Part shown: piece by piece, positions 997 through 20,000 of the stretch
How positions within the stretch are numbered: position 1 is the stretch's first letter
Layout: the number at the start of each line of letters is the position of its first letter
Source of the DNA: an uncultured virus (IMG/VR IMGVR_UViG_3300044837_000188)
Taxonomy: Duplodnaviria > Heunggongvirae > Uroviricota > Caudoviricetes
DNA length: 20,000 nt
Reading direction: 5' to 3' (one strand)
Virus record (IMG/VR): IMGVR_UViG_3300044837_000188
Program-made: the position numbers and the translations under genes
Notes under the pieces: model-generated
The model's input: only the letters and a program-made list of their open reading frames with translations
The model's database searches: none
What the model was told of the DNA's origin: nothing

Positions 997-1236
997 GTGG
1001 CGAAGAAGACTCCCCGCCCTGTCCCCGAGCTGTGCGAGAGCACCAAGGACCACTCCAAGCACCTCTGGAAGCCCTCCTGGGCCACCAACTGGCCCGAGGG
1101 GGCCATGTACCACTGCCGGGGCCGCGACAACGCGGAGGTCCACGAGGGCTGGAAGGCCACCTGCCGGGCGATCAAGAGGGCCAACAAGACCGGCCCCCGC
1201 AAGAAGGTCACCCGTCGGATGTCCTGGAAGGCTTGA
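997..1236 (+). CDS. Small basic hypothetical protein with Cys/His residues
   Basis: GGAGG at 988-992, GTG start; the stop TGA lies inside the -35 box of the next promoter. Confidence 0.7.
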   Translation: MAKKTPRPVPELCESTKDHSKHLWKPSWATNWPEGAMYHCRGRDNAEVHEGWKATCRAIKRANKTGPRKKVTRRMSWKA

Positions 1237-1298
1237 CGCCCCAGGAATTCCTGGAGTACCCTGACGGAGTCAAGACCATGACTCCTCAGGAGGCCACC
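1233..1298 (+). promoter_or_regulatory. Repeated promoter cassette copy 1
   Basis: TTGACG 1233-1238; 18-bp spacer containing the palindrome CCAGGAATTCCTGG; TACCCT 1257-1262; TGACGGAGTCA; GACTCCTCAGGAGG 1280-1293. Confidence 0.85.
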
Positions 1299-1517
1299 AT
1301 GAGCTACCTCTCCTCGAACCCCACCACGATCGCCGTCGCCGCAGAGCTGACGGCCCGGAACTTCAGCACCGCCGGGGATTTCGAGGACGAGGCCGAGTGC
1401 GAGACCTGCGACTACGCGGGTCTGATGGAGTTCTACGAGAACGGCGTCGAGGAGGCCGTGGCGGAGTGCCCCAAGTGCGGTGACCGGGTCGAGAAGTACA
1501 CCGGCCCGGATGCCTGA
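1299..1517 (+). CDS. Small acidic zinc-ribbon protein
   Basis: AGGAGG RBS then ATG 1299 (MSYLSSNPTT...); CETC and CPKC pairs. Confidence 0.8.
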   Translation: MSYLSSNPTTIAVAAELTARNFSTAGDFEDEAECETCDYAGLMEFYENGVEEAVAECPKCGDRVEKYTGPDA

Positions 1518-1932: not shown

Positions 1933-1950
1933 GCTTCCCCTCACGCTGTC

Positions 1951-1980
1951 AGGGCCCGTACTCTCACCGGTACGGGCCTT
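1951..1980 (+). terminator. Stem-loop, putative intrinsic terminator
   Basis: AGGGCCCGTAC-TCTCACCG-GTACGGGCCTT, intergenic. Confidence 0.55.
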
Positions 1981-2002
1981 GTGCCGTTTCATGAGGAGGA
2001 CC

Positions 2003-2638: not shown

Positions 2639-2995
2639 ATGGTGGTCCGCGTGAACCAGGATGGCCTGCTCGAAGCCGACTTCTTTGGCCTGAAGGCCAG
2701 GACCACCCGGCAGGGCGCCCTGCGAGGATTCGCCGTGGAAGAGGGCGACTTCGACTACCCGGCGGCCGAGGGCGAACCCCGCATGTGGACCGCGCTGGTC
2801 TTCGACGACACGGAGACGGCCCTTCTGCGCAAGGCGGCCCTGGCGGCCACGGCGCTGGCCGAGGACCAGGACACCGTGAACCTCGCGATCAAGCTCGTGG
2901 AGTTCCTCGACACCCTGGAGAATTACGCTCCTCCGGCTGAGGGCAAGGCTCTCACCGAGGACGACATTCGGGAGTTGTCGGCCGCTGGGTCTTGA
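2639..2995 (+). CDS. Hypothetical protein
   Basis: GGAGG RBS; stop TGA lies within the -35 of promoter copy 2. Confidence 0.8.
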   Translation: MVVRVNQDGLLEADFFGLKARTTRQGALRGFAVEEGDFDYPAAEGEPRMWTALVFDDTETALLRKAALAATALAEDQDTVNLAIKLVEFLDTLENYAPPAEGKALTEDDIRELSAAGS

Positions 2996-3060
2996 CGCCC
3001 CAACAATCGTTGGAGTACTTTCAGTGACGTTCCGCCAGAGACAGTCACCGGAGGTGCTCT
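2992..3060 (+). promoter_or_regulatory. Repeated promoter cassette copy 2
   Basis: TTGACG 2992-2997; 18-bp spacer with CCAAC-AATC-GTTGG; TACTTT 3016-3021; CCGCCAG box 3032-3038; GGAGG RBS. Confidence 0.85.
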
Positions 3061-3641: not shown

Positions 3642-3709
3642 TTGACGCCCCAGGAATCCTTGTAGTAGCCTTGACGACGTCAAGGTCAACCGACTCCCCA
3701 GGAGGACCC
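3642..3709 (+). promoter_or_regulatory. Repeated promoter cassette copy 3
   Basis: TTGACG 3642-3647; 18-bp spacer CCCCAGGAATCCTTGTAG; TAGCCT 3666-3671; palindrome CCTTGACG-A-CGTCAAGG 3669-3685; GACTCCCCAGGAGG 3692-3705. Confidence 0.87.
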
Positions 3710-6035: not shown

Positions 6036-6440
6036 GTGCTACAGTCCAGAGAGATCCCGCCGACCTCGGAGTTTCCCGTGTTCGACCTGAACTCGTACGA
6101 GAAGAACATCGCTCAGTTCTCGTTCCCCTTCATCAACACGGAGCATGAATACCGGGACATCAAGGTGGTCCGGCGGGGACGGCTCAGCGACGACTCCTGG
6201 GCGATCGTGGACGAGCCCTGGTGTTACCAGCCCAGGGGCCGCAGGTGGGCCTACGAGCGGCTCCCGAGCAGCCGGACGGACAAGTTCCTGAAGGCTTCCC
6301 GGATGCCGCTCGCCGAGGCCCTCCCGCTGGCCGAGAAGCTCGCCAGGAGCAAGGCCCGCCAGTGGGAGAAGCGCCTTGTCCGGATGATCGCCCGCCAGGA
6401 GGCCGTAGCCGCTGCGAAGGCCAAGGAGGCCAGCGAGTGA
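6036..6440 (+). CDS. Hypothetical protein
   Basis: GTG start uncertain; motif WAYERLPSSRTDKF; GTGA overlap with the next gene. Confidence 0.75.
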   Translation: MLQSREIPPTSEFPVFDLNSYEKNIAQFSFPFINTEHEYRDIKVVRRGRLSDDSWAIVDEPWCYQPRGRRWAYERLPSSRTDKFLKASRMPLAEALPLAEKLARSKARQWEKRLVRMIARQEAVAAAKAKEASE

Positions 6441-7123
6441 ACGAAGTGCTGTTGAAGGGGATCGTGGGGAGCACCGCCTACGGTCTCGCCCATGAGGGGT
6501 CCGACGTGGATTACCTGGGCGTGTTCGCGGCTCCCACGCGAGAGGTTCTTGGTCTGCATCCCGGCAAGGAGTCGGTGGTCCACAAGGACCCGGACACGAC
6601 CCTCCACGAGGCGAAGAAGTTCGTCCAGCTCGTCCTGAACGGCAACCCCTCGGTCTCCGAGCTGCTGTGGCTGGACACCTACGAGCAGCGCACGTACCTG
6701 GGCGCCCATCTGGTCGAAATCCGCAAGGCGTTCCTGTCGGCCCCGCGTGTGCGGGATGCCTACATGGGCTACGCCACGTCCCAGTTCGGCCGCCTGATCG
6801 CGCGGGGAGACGGATCCTTCTCCGCCGACACCAGGAAGCGCACCGAGAAGCACGCGCGGCACCTGGTGCGACTGGTGGAGCAGGGCTTCCACCTGTACAT
6901 CTCGGGTGAACTACTGGTGAACGTGACCGGCTTCCTGGAGCCCGAGTGGGTCTTCCAGATGGGCCGCAACATCGCCGACGACCCCAAGAGGGGCGCCGAG
7001 TACATGGTGAATGCCCAGCAGAAGTTCGATGGCGCGCGGAGCTGTCTGCCGGGGTATCCCGACGAGGAGCCCGTCGAGAAGTGGCTCATGGAGGTCCGGG
7101 AGAAGTACTGGACCGCGAAGTAA
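6437..7123 (+). CDS. DNA polymerase beta superfamily nucleotidyltransferase (RlaP/YcgL-like)
   Basis: AAGGAGG RBS, GTG 6437. GSxAYG...SDxD motif (GSTAYGLAHEGSDVDYLGVF), GNPSVSELLW and KHARHLVRL are typical of this family. Confidence 0.85.
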   Translation: MNEVLLKGIVGSTAYGLAHEGSDVDYLGVFAAPTREVLGLHPGKESVVHKDPDTTLHEAKKFVQLVLNGNPSVSELLWLDTYEQRTYLGAHLVEIRKAFLSAPRVRDAYMGYATSQFGRLIARGDGSFSADTRKRTEKHARHLVRLVEQGFHLYISGELLVNVTGFLEPEWVFQMGRNIADDPKRGAEYMVNAQQKFDGARSCLPGYPDEEPVEKWLMEVREKYWTAK

Positions 7124-12108: not shown

Positions 12109-12178
12109 TTGACGCCCCAACAATTCTTGTAGTACCTTCAAGACGTCCGCCAGAGAAACAGACTCCCCAGGAGGCGCT
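12109..12178 (+). promoter_or_regulatory. Repeated promoter cassette copy 5
   Basis: TTGACG 12109-12114; 18-bp spacer CCCCAACAATTCTTGTAG; TACCTT 12133-12138; CCGCCAG 12147-12153; GACTCCCCAGGAGG 12161-12174. Confidence 0.87.
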
Positions 12179-15610: not shown

Positions 15611-15651
15611 GACGAAGCCCCCGACCACCATTCGGGGGCTTCGTCATTTTT
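15611..15651 (+). terminator. Intrinsic terminator
   Basis: GACGAAGCCCCCGA-CCACCAT-TCGGGGGCTTCGTC then ATTTTT. Confidence 0.85.
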
Positions 15652-15662
15652 AAAATCGGGGA

Positions 15663-15731
15663 TTGACTCCCCAGGAATCCTTGTAGTAGTCTTCACTTTG
15701 TCAGGACCACACGACTCCTCAGGAGGCCGAT
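15663..15731 (+). promoter_or_regulatory. Repeated promoter cassette copy 6
   Basis: TTGACT 15663-15668; 18-bp spacer CCCCAGGAATCCTTGTAG (identical to copy 3); TAGTCT 15687-15692; TCACTTTGTCA; GACTCCTCAGGAGG 15713-15726. Confidence 0.87.
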
Positions 15732-17681: not shown

Positions 17682-17707
17682 GAGGGGCCGTCATGAGGCG
17701 GCCCCTC
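17682..17707 (+). terminator. Stem-loop
   Basis: GAGGGGCCGTC-ATGA-GGCGGCCCCTC, intergenic. Confidence 0.55.
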
Positions 17708-17731
17708 CCCTTCGACGCCCTGGGAGGGCTC

Positions 17732-18538
17732 ATGGACTTCGACAAGCTCAACCGCGCGACCTACTACGGGAGCATCGAGACGCACCACAGGCTCGGCCAG
17801 CGCGGGATGCTCACCGATGAACTCGGCCCGTTCGCGGGGGTCAATCCGCAGGAGATCGTCTACCTGCGGGAGAAGCTCGACGGCGCGAACAGCAAGATCG
17901 TGTTCTTCAACGGTACGGACTACGTGATCGGCTCGCGGGAGAAGCTGCTCTACGCGAAGGGCGACCGGCTGACCGAGCAGGTCATGCCGGAGCTGACCTC
18001 GATCGTGGAGACCCTCAAGCCGATCGCGGAGAACATGATCTCCACGTGGAAGGTGGAGAGCCGCGAGAGCGCGGAGTTCGGCTCCCACTCGATCATGGTT
18101 CTGTACTTCGAGACGTACGGGGGCAAGGTCGGCAAGGCGGCGTCCCAGTACAGCGGCGTCGGCAACCTGGGGGCGCGGCTCTTCGACTACGCGCTCGTGG
18201 AGCGCGAGGTCCTCGACATGTCCCGTGTGCAGATCGCGAACTGGCGGGACAACGGCCCGGGGCCGACCTTCGGGGACACGCAGGACCTGGCATCCGTGGC
18301 ACGGGACTACGGCTTGCCCGTGGTGCCCAACATCGGGGCTGTCCGCATGGAGGAGCTGCCGAAGGACCTGGGCGGCATGCTCGACTTCCTCCAGCGCAAC
18401 GTGGGTACGACCCACGCGCTCCTGGACGACGAGGGCAAGGGCGAGCCCGAGGGCATCGTGCTCCGCACGAACGACCGCTCGGTCATCTCCAAGGCACGCT
18501 TCCAGGACTACCGGCGCACGCTGCGGCAGCGCGGCTGA
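17732..18538 (+). CDS. ATP-dependent RNA ligase family protein (Rnl2-like adenylation domain)
   Basis: GGGAGG then ATG 17732. Motif I EKLDGAN, III YFETYG, IIIa LFDY, IV EGIVLR, V SKAR; no OB-fold-sized C-terminal extension. Confidence 0.8.
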   Translation: MDFDKLNRATYYGSIETHHRLGQRGMLTDELGPFAGVNPQEIVYLREKLDGANSKIVFFNGTDYVIGSREKLLYAKGDRLTEQVMPELTSIVETLKPIAENMISTWKVESRESAEFGSHSIMVLYFETYGGKVGKAASQYSGVGNLGARLFDYALVEREVLDMSRVQIANWRDNGPGPTFGDTQDLASVARDYGLPVVPNIGAVRMEELPKDLGGMLDFLQRNVGTTHALLDDEGKGEPEGIVLRTNDRSVISKARFQDYRRTLRQRG

Positions 18539-18739: not shown

Positions 18740-19201
18740 ATGGGCGCCTGGGACACCGGGATCTTCGACAACGACAACGCGGCCGACTTTTCGGGCTCGA
18801 TGGAGGCCTGCACGGACGTGGAGGCCCGTCACGATCTCCTCATGGCCACCATGGGCGCGATCCTGGAGCGGGCCATCGAGCCGGACGAGATGACGCCGGA
18901 CTACGAGTTCGGCTACGAGGTGGAGCACGCGCTCGCCTCCGCCGCGTACGTGGCCGACGCCAAGAACGGCCGTCACGACTTCACGGACACCTCGTACGCC
19001 AAGATGCTGGTCCGCGAGGACGACTTCGAGGAGGAGGACGCCTGGGACTTCATCGACGTCGGCACCCCGTCTCCGAAGCTGGTGGAGCGGGCCGTCCTCC
19101 TGGTGGAGAAGGTCCTGATCAGCATGGTGGAGCGAGGTGTGGACGCCGAGTGGCGTGAGCCCTCGGAGAAGCTCCTCAAGGCGCTCCTGGAAAAGGCTTG
19201 A
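18740..19201 (+). CDS. DUF4259-like acidic protein
   Basis: GGAGG RBS; N-terminal MGAWDTGIFDNDNAADF signature; stop lies in the -35 of promoter copy 8. Confidence 0.8.
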   Translation: MGAWDTGIFDNDNAADFSGSMEACTDVEARHDLLMATMGAILERAIEPDEMTPDYEFGYEVEHALASAAYVADAKNGRHDFTDTSYAKMLVREDDFEEEDAWDFIDVGTPSPKLVERAVLLVEKVLISMVERGVDAEWREPSEKLLKALLEKA

Positions 19202-19241
19202 CGCTCCAACAATCCTGGGTGTAGCGTTGACAACGTCAAGG
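19198..19241 (+). promoter_or_regulatory. Repeated promoter cassette copy 8 (drives the ncRNA region)
   Basis: TTGACG 19198-19203; 18-bp spacer CTCCAACAATCCTGGGTG; TAGCGT 19222-19227; TTGAC-AAC-GTCAA 19227-19239. Confidence 0.85.
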
Positions 19242-19281
19242 CCGTACAAGGGCCGCCGGGGAGCCCCAATCCCCGGCACCA
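19241..19281 (+). other. Conserved hairpin/pseudoknot leader element, copy 1
   Basis: GCCGTACAAGGGCC-GCCGGGGA-GCCCCAA-TCCCCGGC-ACCA; homologous to 19861-19897. Confidence 0.6.
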
Positions 19282-19284
19282 CTC

Positions 19285-19418
19285 GGGGTGAGCGGAAGCG
19301 TAAGCACGGTTCAAATCCGTGGATCATCGGGCGATGTTGTGGGGTTCGATTCCCCTTCACTGATGGCAGCTAATAGGGCGGCGGCCCGCGCAGAGGGGTT
19401 CGAATCCCTTCCACCCCA
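19285..19418 (+). ncRNA. Putative structured tRNA-like ncRNA with three T-arm hairpins
   Basis: CACGG-TTCAAAT-CCGTG (19305-19321), GGGG-TTCGATT-CCCC (19341-19355), AGGGG-TTCGAAT-CCCTT (19394-19410); ends GGGGTG/CACCCC-A pair like an acceptor stem. Confidence 0.65.
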
Positions 19419-19452
19419 CTCAGTAAGACCGACGACTCCTCAGGAGGACACC

Positions 19453-19860
19453 ATGGCGAAGAAGATCATCGAGAGCGTGGCCACGCTGGTTCGCAAGGGC
19501 CAGGAGGCCAGCTTCGACGGCGGGGTCACGTGGGGCCGCGTGAAGTCTGTACAGGCCCTGGTGGTCATGGCGGACGGCACGAAGAAGACTGTCAGTCTGA
19601 GCAGCCTGGTACACATCCGCGAGGACGACCCCGAGCTGTGCCCCAACGGCCAGGACCTGGGGACCGAGTGCCGCGAGATCGACCCCTGCGAGTCCTGCCA
19701 GCAGGACATCGACGAGGAGGGCGACCGGATCGAGGCCTCCATGGGCCTGTGTGCGCCCGTTGTGGAGGATGACGACGAGGACGAGCCCGACCCGTACCGC
19801 AAGTGCCGGGGATGCTCGGGTGGCTGCTGCACCGGCGGCAGTGACCCCTGCACCTGCTAG
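19453..19860 (+). CDS. Cys-rich acidic protein lying between tRNA-like RNAs
   Basis: GACTCCTCAGGAGG 19434-19447 then ATG 19453; CPNG...CREIDPCESC and CRGCSGGCCTGGSDPCTC. Confidence 0.8.
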   Translation: MAKKIIESVATLVRKGQEASFDGGVTWGRVKSVQALVVMADGTKKTVSLSSLVHIREDDPELCPNGQDLGTECREIDPCESCQQDIDEEGDRIEASMGLCAPVVEDDDEDEPDPYRKCRGCSGGCCTGGSDPCTC

Positions 19861-19897
19861 ACCGTACGAGGGCCGGTGAGAGCCCTGATCTCACCAC
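19861..19897 (+). other. Conserved hairpin/pseudoknot leader element, copy 2
   Basis: ACCGTACGAGGGCC-GGTGAGA-GCCCTGA-TCTCACC-AC. Confidence 0.6.
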
Positions 19898-20000
19898 GGA
19901 GGGGTGCCCGAGTGGCCTATGGGTCCGGACGCAATCCGGATGACCTGGTCGGGTGCGCGGCCTAGGACAACGCGCACCGTCAGCCAGAGATCGTGGGTTC
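19898..20000 (+). ncRNA. Atypical tRNA-like RNA (Cys-like GCA in a 5-nt loop, oversized variable arm), 3'-truncated by the window edge
   Basis: GGAGGGG-TG; D arm CCC-GAGTGGCCTAT-GGG; anticodon arm CCGGA-CGCAA-TCCGG; ~50-nt arm with GGTGCGCG/CGCGCACC; T arm starts GTGGG-TTC at the edge. Confidence 0.65.

What the first reader, a model, noticed from the sequence alone, without database searches (positions are those of the whole stretch)
19241..19897. The same covarying hairpin-pseudoknot element precedes both tRNA-like RNAs
Seen: RCCGTACRAGGGCC-[stem]-GCCCYRA-[stem]-AC at 19241-19281 and 19861-19897. The stems differ in sequence (GCCGGGGA/TCCCCGGC versus GGTGAGA/TCTCACC) yet both pair perfectly around a 7-nt loop. 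The loop GCCC(T) is complementary to the conserved upstream (A)GGGC, giving a possible pseudoknot. Each copy lies within a few nt of the 5' end of a tRNA-like element, and each hairpin is followed by or ends in CCA. Inference: a dedicated processing signal, exonuclease block, antitermination site or small ribozyme for this RNA class.
Basis: partly seen in the sequence, partly recalled or inferred. Interest (0 to 1): 0.78.

Follow-up and report, generated by a model that had tools for sequence, protein, structure and literature searches.

The report
Phage-wide compact pseudoknot before tRNA-like genes
The two repeated hairpins are real and belong to a small RNA pseudoknot found in many phages but in no RNA-family library searched, placed just after a gene's stop codon and just before a tRNA, a tRNA-like RNA or the next gene, probably as a punctuation and protection mark.

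Summary
Observation confirmed. E1 (19250-19277) and E2 (19869-19895) are the only two copies in the window. Their stems differ at 4 of 7 pairs, always on both sides.

Relatives found in IMG/VR viral contigs and in Microbacterium phage Zooman show a 4-bp stem between an upstream xGGC and the loop's GCCx. All four Watson-Crick pairs occur at the variable position: 50 of 59 copies, against 22.3 in permutations.

Geometry is fixed. The upstream strand lies 9 nt before the loop in 49 of 51 copies. No U-tract follows.

The element typically starts 5-6 nt after an upstream ORF's stop codon. It ends 3-8 nt before a tRNA or tRNA-like RNA, or shortly before the next ribosome-binding site. So it is not specific to tRNA-like RNAs.

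No Rfam family reaches its gathering score; the nearest is M23 RNA (about 25 bits against 41.2). Only 1 of 12 chance core matches in 401 Actinomycetota genomes had the structure.

Function is inferred: an intercistronic barrier that caps the upstream mRNA after RNase P releases the tRNA(-like) RNA. Rivals are a ligand or protein sensor, an RNase P/Z mimic and recoding.

The parts
19198..19227 (+). Promoter-like repeat (TTGACG, 18 nt, TAGCGT), one of six copies in the window. E1 starts about 14 nt after its second hexamer, so E1 would lie near the 5' end of a transcript.
   Evidence: 6 matches of the repeat pattern against 0.00 expected; families D1 and D3. The generic sigma-70 scan did not call it, so promoter function is inferred.
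19241..19249 (+). E1 5' flank GCCGTACAA. It matches the E2 spacer. It is not part of the conserved family core.
   Evidence: Exact-pattern scans elsewhere found no copy with the hairpin.
19250..19253 (+). E1 pseudoknot stem S1, 5' strand (GGGC). C19254 is the 1-nt linker L1.
19255..19262 (+). E1 hairpin stem S2, 5' strand (GCCGGGGA).
19263..19269 (+). E1 loop GCCCCAA. GCCC (19263-19266) is the S1 3' strand; CAA is loop L3.
19270..19277 (+). E1 hairpin stem S2, 3' strand (TCCCCGGC). It is followed by the spacer ACCACTC (19278-19284).
19285..19420 (+). tRNA-like RNA 1. The acceptor-like stem is GGGGTGA/CCACCCC and the T arm is AGGGGTTCGAATCCCTT. ARAGORN does not call it.
   Evidence: Homologues in Satis and G002 show a G:C to C:G change at acceptor pair 4.
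19453..19860 (+). ORF of 135 aa with no Pfam family. Its TAG stop (19858-19860) lies 8 nt before E2's S1.
19861..19868 (+). E2 spacer ACCGTACG between the stop codon and the pseudoknot.
19869..19873 (+). E2 S1 5' strand (AGGGC). C19874 is the linker L1.
19875..19881 (+). E2 S2 5' strand (GGTGAGA).
19882..19888 (+). E2 loop GCCCTGA. GCCC(T) is the S1 3' strand; (T)GA is L3.
19889..19895 (+). E2 S2 3' strand (TCTCACC), followed by AC.
19898..20000 (+). tRNA-like RNA 2: a class-II-like D arm and a long insert. The window end cuts it, so its 3' end and exact 5' end are unknown.
   Evidence: read by eye; not called by any tool.

Best explanation
E1 and E2 are two copies of a compact H-type RNA pseudoknot that recurs in many phages.

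Shown:
- Stem S1 has 4 (sometimes 5) bp, formed between an upstream xGGC and the first bases of the hairpin loop (GCCx).
- Linker plus stem S2 always fills 9 nt (1-2 nt linker, 7-8 bp stem).
- A 3-nt loop crosses S1, and an unpaired base, mostly A, follows.
- The element sits in very short gaps inside operons. It usually starts 5-6 nt after the stop codon of the upstream ORF.
- It ends 3-8 nt before a tRNA or tRNA-like RNA, or shortly before the next gene's ribosome-binding site.

Inferred mechanism:
- It acts on the transcript as a punctuation and barrier module.
- A start 5-6 nt past the stop codon would place it just outside the footprint of a ribosome stopped there, so it could stay folded.
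- It would insulate the next functional unit (tRNA 5' end or ribosome-binding site) from pairing with coding sequence.
- Where a tRNA(-like) RNA follows, RNase P cleavage at its 5' end would leave the upstream mRNA ending in the pseudoknot plus about 2-7 nt.
- By recalled biochemistry, that overhang is too short for 3'-5' exonucleases to load.
- In this window E2 would cap the mRNA of ORF 19453-19860.
- E1 would form the structured 5' leader of the transcript from the promoter-like site at 19198.
For: Structure in the window:
- 4 of 7 stem pairs are changed on both sides between E1 and E2.

Structure across the family (alignment A8, 27 distinct copies):
- S2 is paired in 97.9% of cells, and 4 of 7 pairs show double changes.
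- The covariation score is 0.283 against 0.096 in shuffles (0 of 500 as high). Slid controls give at most 0.078.

Pseudoknot, scan with the variable loop base left free:
- 73 distinct copies were found.
- 51 of 73 have at least 4 bp of S1.
- 59 of 73 have an upstream GGC in range. In 50 of those 59 the fourth pair is Watson-Crick (permutation mean 22.3, maximum 35 of 10,000).
- All four pair types occur: loop G with C 30, loop T with A 9, loop A with T 6, loop C with G 5.
- Linker plus S2 equals 9 nt in 49 of 51.

Pseudoknot, earlier set:
- 18 of 26 hairpins with S2 of 6 bp or more have S1 of 4 bp or more.
- The control using the other class's loop gives 1 of 26. Shuffled upstream sequence gives a mean of 2.46 and a maximum of 8 in 2000.

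Position:
- 15 of 23 pseudoknot copies have an open frame of at least 50 codons ending 5-11 nt before S1: spacer 5 nt nine times, 6 twice, 7 twice, 8 once, 11 once.
- In the larger set, 19 of 37 copies with an upstream stop have a spacer of 5-6 nt.

tRNA adjacency:
- ARAGORN tRNAs start 3-8 nt after the hairpin in 5 of 32 loci scanned.
- Of 80 loci scanned, 8 have a downstream tRNA, 7 of them starting 3-8 nt after the stem.
- tRNA-like RNAs follow E1, E2, two copies in contig G002 and the copy in phage Zooman.

Not a terminator:
- 6 of 73 copies have at least 4 T in the next 8 nt.
- No terminator-like site is called at 18900-20000.

Rare in hosts:
- 12 core matches occur in 401 Actinomycetota genomes. 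Eleven have only 4-5 bp stems. One has 6 bp plus GGGC and looks coding.

A mechanistic precedent exists in MALAT1-mascRNA (PMC8457004, abstract in the search listing).
Against: - No expression or RNA-end data exist for this phage or its relatives.
- E1 has no ORF stop within 30 nt upstream, so the 'cap of an upstream mRNA' role cannot apply to E1 as it stands.
- Many family members are followed by a ribosome-binding site, where no known endonuclease site defines a 3' end.
- Strong sequence conservation of the core across phages of 39-70% GC is more than a plain barrier needs. It hints at specific recognition by a protein, ligand or enzyme.
- The family was fished with patterns that fix the top of S2 and part of the loop. 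Conservation there is by construction, and the counts are not an unbiased census.
- Phage Zooman's copy starts directly after the annotated stop (0-nt spacer). In the larger set 5 copies have a spacer of 0-4 nt.
- The Satis-type homologues of tRNA-like RNA 1 lack the element, so it is dispensable for that RNA.
Confidence: 0.4

Rival explanations
1. A regulatory aptamer. The pseudoknot would bind a small molecule or a conserved protein (for example a ribosomal protein) and tune expression or processing of what follows, like the candidate cis-regulatory M23 motif.
For: - The only Rfam family that scores at all on relatives is M23 RNA (24.8 and 25.8 bits).
- Its consensus, as printed there, has the same layout: a 5' CGGC, a hairpin with GCCG in the loop, then a purine-rich ribosome-binding-like stretch.
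- M23 is described as likely cis-regulatory, with possible binding of an unknown compound (PMC5737381, passages).
- Many family members sit 0-35 nt before a ribosome-binding site.
- The core sequence is conserved across very different phages.
Against: - The scores are far below M23's gathering score of 41.2. Only 2 of the 32 relative loci scanned matched it at E up to 1, and the window did not match it even at E up to 10.
- Loop positions 5 and 6 vary freely: 22 different loop sequences occur among 73 copies. That leaves few conserved unpaired bases for a binding pocket.
- The ribosome-binding site is not part of the fold.
- Downstream genes are unrelated, or are tRNAs.
Confidence: 0.2
2. A mimic of the tRNA acceptor/T-arm helix. 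The two stems stacked end to end would give about 12 bp followed by an unpaired A. RNase P or RNase Z would recognise and cut it, so the element itself would be the processing site, in a 'tRNA punctuation' arrangement.
For: - S1 plus S2 equals 12 bp in both window copies and in the 7 other GC-rich copies listed first.
- The base after S2 is A in 31 of 51 copies.
- E1 and the G004 copy are followed by ACCA.
- A small pseudoknot with a 3' RCCA is reported to be a bacterial RNase P substrate (PMC12710915, abstract in the search listing).
Against: - The sum is 10-11 bp in 8 of the 17 rows listed.
- ACCA is absent after E2 and after most family members.
- The loop is not T-loop-like.
- No tool could test cleavage.
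Confidence: 0.15
3. A transcription signal: a U-less terminator or attenuator, or a cis-acting antiterminator RNA.
For: - It sits right after stop codons.
- In contig G012 it follows the last plus-strand gene of a lysozyme-containing gene block.
- In contig G010 a promoter-like sequence follows it, read by eye.
Against: - No U-tract follows: 6 of 73 copies have at least 4 T in the next 8 nt. None is called in the window.
- tRNA(-like) genes start 2-8 nt downstream with no room for a promoter, so transcription must read through.
- E1 lies about 14 nt after a promoter-like site.
- The window's evident terminators are 12-14 bp stems, one with a T-run (15611-15645).
Confidence: 0.07
4. A recoding signal: a pseudoknot placed 5-8 nt after a stop codon to stimulate read-through.
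For: The spacing to the stop codon, with a mode of 5 nt, is what recoding pseudoknots have by recalled knowledge. E2's spacer is 8 nt.
Against: - In-frame extensions after the stop run from 0 to 143 codons with no pattern. The next stop is 0 or 1 codon away in two copies.
- Spacer lengths are not multiples of three, so no common peptide would result.
- Read-through would run into a tRNA gene.
Confidence: 0.05
5. A small self-cleaving ribozyme that frees the 5' end of the tRNA or mRNA, or a DNA-level site such as a mobile-element end.
For: - It is adjacent to tRNAs, as theta ribozymes are (PMC10879173, abstract and passages).
- The same core is spread over unrelated phages.
Against: - No ribozyme family matched in Rfam even at E up to 10.
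- Theta ribozymes are HDV-like and are reported as processing tRNA 3' ends (PMC10879173), whereas this element precedes the tRNA.
- 30 nt with two short stems has no precedent as a ribozyme, by recalled knowledge.
- Compensatory changes and strand-specific placement relative to genes favour RNA over DNA.
Confidence: 0.05

Closest known systems
Rfam RF03006, M23 RNA (Weinberg et al. 2017, PMC5737381)
   Same: As printed by cmscan: a 5' CGGC, a 2-nt linker, a GC-rich hairpin whose loop starts with GCCG, then a purine-rich stretch before a gene. Its function is unknown and it is thought to be cis-regulatory.
   Different: - Relatives score about 25 bits against a gathering score of 41.2, and the window copies do not match at all.
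- M23 is described upstream of M23 peptidase genes in bacteria. This family lies in phage intergenic gaps after stop codons, often before tRNAs.
- I could not see whether the published M23 consensus includes the pseudoknot, because figures are not held.
MALAT1 / MEN-beta 3' end: a protective RNA structure followed by the tRNA-like mascRNA, cut by RNase P (PMC8457004, abstract seen in the listing only)
   Same: The order is the same: a stable structure, then a few nt, then a tRNA-like RNA. The proposed logic is also the same: RNase P makes the 3' end and the structure protects it.
   Different: MALAT1 is eukaryotic and nuclear, and its structure is a triple helix with an A-rich tract. Here the structure is a 30-nt pseudoknot in phage operons. 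The processing step is not shown here.
Compact H-type pseudoknot in the gene 32 mRNA leader of T-even phages (recalled, no call)
   Same: A very compact H-type pseudoknot in a phage mRNA, with a single-nucleotide loop spanning a stem of about 7 bp.
   Different: That one is a nucleation site for autoregulation by one protein at one gene. This one is a portable module at many unrelated gene junctions.
Intercistronic stabiliser hairpins such as REP elements, and phage T7 RNase III sites (recalled, no call)
   Same: Structured elements placed between cistrons just after stop codons, which shape segmental mRNA stability.
   Different: Those are plain or long imperfect hairpins without a conserved pseudoknot, and REPs are host-genome repeats. 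This core was essentially absent from 401 Actinomycetota genomes.
Theta (HDV-like) ribozymes next to phage tRNAs (PMC10879173)
   Same: A small structured RNA placed within a few nt of phage tRNA genes.
   Different: Theta ribozymes are HDV-like and are reported as processing tRNA 3' ends (PMC10879173). This element is a simple 30-nt pseudoknot 5' of the tRNA, with no ribozyme match.

Membership tests
H-type RNA pseudoknot | Two helices with crossing topology, each supported by compensatory changes. | tested here: met
   - S2 shows double changes at 4 of 7 pairs.
- S1 pair col5-col21 is CG 10, GC 7, other 10 in a fixed register.
- With the register anchored on GGC, 50 of 59 copies are Watson-Crick with all four pair types, against a permutation mean of 22.3.
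H-type RNA pseudoknot | Loop lengths sterically able to span the stems. | not testable with these tools
   L1 is 1-2 nt over a 7-8 bp stem and L3 is 3 nt over a 4 bp stem. I judge this plausible from recalled rules. No 3D modelling of RNA was available.
Rfam M23 RNA (RF03006) | Score at or above Rfam's gathering threshold (41.2 bits). | tested here: not met
   The window gives no M23 match even at E up to 10. Of 32 relative loci scanned, 2 matched, at 24.8 and 25.8 bits.
Rfam M23 RNA (RF03006) | Location in the 5' UTR of M23 peptidase genes. | tested here: not met
   In the window the element is followed by tRNA-like RNAs. ORF 19453-19860 has no Pfam family. Downstream ORFs of relatives are diverse, but they were not scanned against Pfam.
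Intrinsic (rho-independent) terminator | GC-rich hairpin followed by a U-tract. | tested here: not met
   No terminator-like site is called at 18900-20000. 6 of 73 family copies have at least 4 T in the 8 nt after the stem.
HDV-like / theta ribozyme | Nested double pseudoknot with a catalytic C, with the cleavage site adjacent to the tRNA and a reported role in tRNA 3'-end processing. | tested here: not met
   No HDV-like or other ribozyme family matched in Rfam at E up to 10. The element lies 5' of the tRNA(-like) RNA. The paper's description was read in passages.
Stop-codon read-through pseudoknot | Pseudoknot 5-9 nt after the stop codon. | tested here: met
   The spacer is 8 nt for E2. The mode is 5 nt in the family. 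E1 has no stop codon in range.
Stop-codon read-through pseudoknot | A meaningful in-frame extension beyond the stop. | tested here: not met
   Extensions run from 0 to 143 codons with no pattern, and are 0 and 1 codon in two copies.
tRNA acceptor-arm mimic / RNase P model substrate | About 12 bp of stacked helix followed by a 3' RCCA. | tested here: inconclusive
   S1 plus S2 equals 12 bp for E1, E2 and 7 other rows, and 10-11 bp in 8 rows. ACCA follows E1 but not E2, where ACGG follows.
tRNA gene (the element itself) | Cloverleaf recognised by tRNA finders. | tested here: not met
   ARAGORN finds 0 genes in the window. Rfam gives no tRNA match on the element.

The most novel reading that the evidence does not exclude
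This is a previously undescribed class of ultra-compact pseudoknot, spread across many phages, that works as a true 'punctuation mark' for phage operons. Under this reading it is recognised, as a mimic of the tRNA acceptor helix or through a dedicated factor, by the host tRNA-processing machinery (RNase P/Z), or it blocks host exonucleases. Phages could then cut polycistronic transcripts into defined, stable mRNAs and tRNAs. That would be a viral, pseudoknot-based counterpart of mitochondrial tRNA punctuation and of MALAT1-mascRNA processing.
Probability: 0.25. Interest if true: 0.85.

Novelty: new variant of a known kind. Interest (0 to 1): 0.72.

Why it matters
If the reading holds, phages of very different hosts share a portable 30-nt RNA module that defines where one expression unit ends and the next begins.

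- It would explain how tRNA and tRNA-like genes can be embedded a few nucleotides behind protein genes.
- It would give a new handle on phage mRNA processing and stability.
- It would offer a very small, context-independent insulator or stabiliser for synthetic operons.

Even without a function, the motif is well supported by covariation and reaches no Rfam 15 family's threshold. It occurs in a cultured phage (Microbacterium phage Zooman), so it can be tested directly.

Tried and rejected
- Exact scans with the 14-mer plus loop gave 5 loci in viral contigs, 20 in metagenome contigs and 17 in genome contigs.
- None has the hairpin. Many are a recurring VPYKG-coding stretch (my translation by eye).
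- My rough estimate of the chance number for the genome scan is about 17, so these are chance matches.
- Three Streptomyces loci share the 13-mer in an intergenic region, but without the structure and with no tRNA nearby.

**Close relatives of the window**
- None was found in GenBank phages by DNA or protein.
- One 40%-identical RNA ligase locus in IMG/VR (L006) has no copy of the element.
- Satis, JustBecause and G001 have no copy by pattern or by model.

**Sequencing runs**
- No RNA holder was listed.
- Contigs of three soil-metagenome runs from three studies cover E1 and E2 at roughly 90% identity.
- No difference inside 19228-19282 or 19825-20000 is among the 40 rows shown, but 131 rows were hidden. 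I therefore draw no conclusion on conservation from this.

**Other**
- MAFFT could not align the two copies by structure. I used a model built from E1 alone instead.
- Terminator, recoding, ribozyme and M23 membership were considered and rejected; see the rivals and the membership rows.
- The alternative small hairpin GGCC/GGCC around GTACAAG forms in E1 but not in E2, and not outside this phage.
- The 10,006 candidate phage RNAs of PMC10690425: six contig names were searched in 6 supplementary files with no occurrence, but 3 files could not be searched. Prior listing there is not excluded.
- Literature searches found no description of this element.
Full report
**Setting.** The window is 66% G+C. 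By the ORF list its long frames run mostly on the + strand.
- It carries an RlaP-type nucleotidyltransferase (6221-7123), an RNA ligase (17693-18538) and a DUF4259 protein (18740-19201).
- No whole genome is held for it.
- It has no close relative among GenBank phages. The only DNA match is a 34-nt stretch of the tRNA-like RNA shared with Streptomyces phages Satis, Quantum, Kradal and EhyElimayoE. The best protein match is an RNA ligase at 38-39% identity.
- ARAGORN finds no tRNA in the window, and Rfam finds nothing at gathering scores.

- The 13-mer occurs 8 times with up to 2 mismatches, against 1.78 expected. Only the two exact copies carry the hairpin.
- A covariance model made from E1 alone recovers E2 at 28.1 bits (E 1.4e-5). 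Nothing else exceeds 11.1 bits.
- Between the copies, 4 of the 7 shared stem pairs are changed on both sides. The only other helix possible in both is GGGC with the loop's GCCC.
- By folding energy E1 stands out (z -3.24). E2 does not (z -0.46).

**Surroundings.**
- E1 lies about 14 nt after the second hexamer of a repeat (TTGACG, 18 nt, TAnnnT). That repeat occurs six times in the window against none expected.
- I read the repeat as this phage's promoter, although the generic sigma-70 scan does not call it.
- E1 ends 7 nt before a tRNA-like RNA (19285-19420). That RNA has an acceptor-like stem and a canonical T arm, and homologues in Satis and other contigs.
- E2 begins 8 nt after the TAG of ORF 19453-19860 and ends 2-5 nt before a second tRNA-like RNA, which the window end cuts.

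Exact scans with it returned only chance or coding matches.

**Finding relatives.**
- The promoter-like repeat led to three IMG/VR contigs.
- Models R1 and R3 then found three further true copies.
- Two are in a 156-kb contig (G002), each after a TGA stop and 4 nt before a tRNA-like RNA. One of those tRNA-like RNAs is the homologue of tRNA-like RNA 1.
- One is in a 160-kb contig (G004), 5 nt before a tRNA that ARAGORN calls Gly.
- In these copies the conserved part is only xGGC, a 1-2 nt linker, the stem, the loop GCCxxxA, the stem and then mostly A.
- The Satis-type homologues of the tRNA-like RNA have no such element.

**A wide family.**
- Scans of IMG/VR with two 15-base cores gave 25 and 58 loci, which is 58 distinct sequences. 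Of these, 26 have a stem of at least 6 bp. Of those 26, 18 have at least 4 bp of complementarity between the upstream strand and their own loop.
- The control with the other class's loop gives 1 of 26. Shuffled upstream sequence gives a mean of 2.46.
- A third scan left loop positions 4-6 free. It gave 81 loci and 73 distinct copies.
- The upstream base tracks loop position 4 through all four Watson-Crick pairs: 50 of 59 copies, against a permutation mean of 22.3 and a maximum of 35 in 10,000.
- The distance from the upstream strand to the loop is 9 nt in 49 of 51 copies.
- The pair-counting tool, run on an ungapped loop-anchored alignment of 27 distinct copies, agrees.
- Caveat: the scan patterns fix the top of the stem and part of the loop. 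Those positions are invariant by construction, and the family's true breadth is unknown.

**Host genomes.** The core is nearly absent from them. There are 12 exact matches in 401 Actinomycetota genomes, against 3 for the reversed control. Only 1 of the 12 has a stem of 6 bp or more with pseudoknot pairing, and that one looks coding.

**A cultured phage has it.** Microbacterium phage Zooman carries a copy in an unannotated gap. It lies directly after gene 124 and 2 nt before the first of three unannotated tRNA-like repeats, upstream of the phage's tRNA array.

**Placement.**
- Of 23 pseudoknot copies with 400-nt flanks, 15 follow an open frame of at least 50 codons. The stop lies 5 nt (nine copies), 6 (two), 7 (two), 8 (one) or 11 nt (one) before stem S1. 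Three of the nine are orthologues.
- In the third set, 37 of 51 copies have such a stop. The spacer is 5-6 nt in 19 of them, 0-4 nt in 5, and 10 nt or more in 6.
- Downstream, tRNAs begin 3-8 nt after the stem in 5 of 32 loci, and in 7 of 80 loci.
- Many other copies are followed within 0-35 nt by a ribosome-binding site and a start codon.
- T-runs after the stem are rare: 6 of 73.

**Interpretation.** What is shown is a conserved, compact H-type pseudoknot with fixed geometry. It is placed in the shortest possible gaps between an ORF and the next functional unit.

The function is inferred.
- A start 5-6 nt past the stop codon puts the fold just outside a terminating ribosome. This rests on the recalled size of the ribosome's mRNA channel.
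- A 2-7 nt gap to the tRNA 5' end means RNase P cleavage would leave a 3' overhang too short for PNPase or RNase R to load. Those enzyme requirements are also recalled.
- This supports a barrier or insulator that caps the upstream mRNA, as in MALAT1-mascRNA (PMC8457004, abstract in the listing).
- E1 does not fit the capping part, because it has no upstream ORF in range.
- In one soil-metagenome relative the stretch 19196-19246 is replaced by 560 other bases. The window's arrangement may therefore be derived.

**Rivals.**
- A ligand- or protein-binding regulator like the M23 motif.
- A mimic of the tRNA acceptor helix cut by RNase P or Z.
- A transcription signal, a recoding signal, or a ribozyme. 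These are less likely, for the reasons given under rival explanations.

**Novelty.** No Rfam 15 family reaches its threshold on the window or on the 32 relative loci scanned. My literature searches found no description. I could not fully search the supplements of the large phage RNA catalogue. I file it as a new variant of a known kind: small cis-acting pseudoknots, nearest to M23.

Noticed in passing
window 1233-1259, 2992-3018, 3642-3668, 12109-12135, 15663-15689, 19198-19224: There are six copies of a strongly conserved promoter-like repeat (TTGACG, 18 nt, TAnnnT), most followed by a shared leader ACGACTCCTCAGGAGG and a start codon. The same repeat occurs in three IMG/VR contigs (G002, G003, G004).
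   Followed up: partly
window 3668-3686 and 19226-19240: An inverted repeat (CCTTGACG A CGTCAAGG, and a weaker copy) sits right after the second promoter hexamer. It looks like an operator.
   Followed up: no
window 19285-19420; L007 3885-4035 (Satis); L084 about 1345-1501 minus strand (G002); L101 579-733: A conserved tRNA-like RNA of 135-160 nt that ARAGORN does not call. It has an acceptor-like stem with an A.C mismatch at the seventh pair, a covarying fourth pair, a 7-nt loop carrying CAA in the anticodon position, a very long variable region and a canonical T arm. Part of it scores 27.8 bits on tRNA-Sec, below the gathering score of 47.
   Followed up: partly
window 19898-20000: A second tRNA-like RNA with a class-II-type D arm, a 7-nt loop with C where U33 would be, and a long insert. 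The window end cuts it.
   Followed up: no
window 6221-7123 and 17693-18538; L028 3740-5404: RNA-repair-type genes (an RlaP nucleotidyltransferase and an RNA ligase) lie near the tRNA-like RNAs. In Streptomyces phage JustBecause the homologous ligase is followed by a Ro-like RNA-binding protein, which hints at a Y-RNA-like role for the tRNA-like RNAs.
   Followed up: no
window 15611-15645: A perfect 13-14 bp hairpin followed by ATTTTT lies just upstream of the promoter-like repeat at 15663. It is a classic terminator, unlike E1 and E2.
   Followed up: no
window 19195-19247 (run X2, record 8): A soil-metagenome relative about 90% identical has 560 other bases in place of the promoter-like site and the 5' flank of E1.
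   Followed up: no
L246 48-144 minus strand; L221, L222, L243, L247, L253: The tRNAs that directly follow the pseudoknot in other phages are unusually long, at 97-99 nt. Rfam's alignment shows a 33-nt insert in the anticodon region of one of them.
   Followed up: no
L007 1443-3195 (Satis tRNA array): Spacers of the Satis tRNA array fold into strong hairpins that end 2-6 nt before the next tRNA (before Trp, Pro and Thr). These are unrelated in sequence to the element studied.
   Followed up: partly
L222, L253, L247, L215, L258, L221, L220 and the G002 copy at L091 15515-15548 minus strand: In one subfamily the spacer between stop codon and pseudoknot is itself conserved (stop, then GCACG or CGCACG). 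E1, E2 and L147 share GTAC in the same place. I have no explanation for this.
   Followed up: no
L292 1530-1985 (Microbacterium phage Zooman, record about 85219-85674): Three tandem unannotated tRNA-like repeats, each ending in GGGTTTCGA(A/T)TACTCTGCTC, lie between the pseudoknot and the annotated tRNA array.
   Followed up: no
window 1950-1981: A perfect 12-13 bp hairpin lies inside ORF 1916-2224. Its arms contain GGGCCCGTAC, and its minus-strand loop contains GGTGAGA, the same 7-mer as E2's stem. This is probably chance.
   Followed up: no
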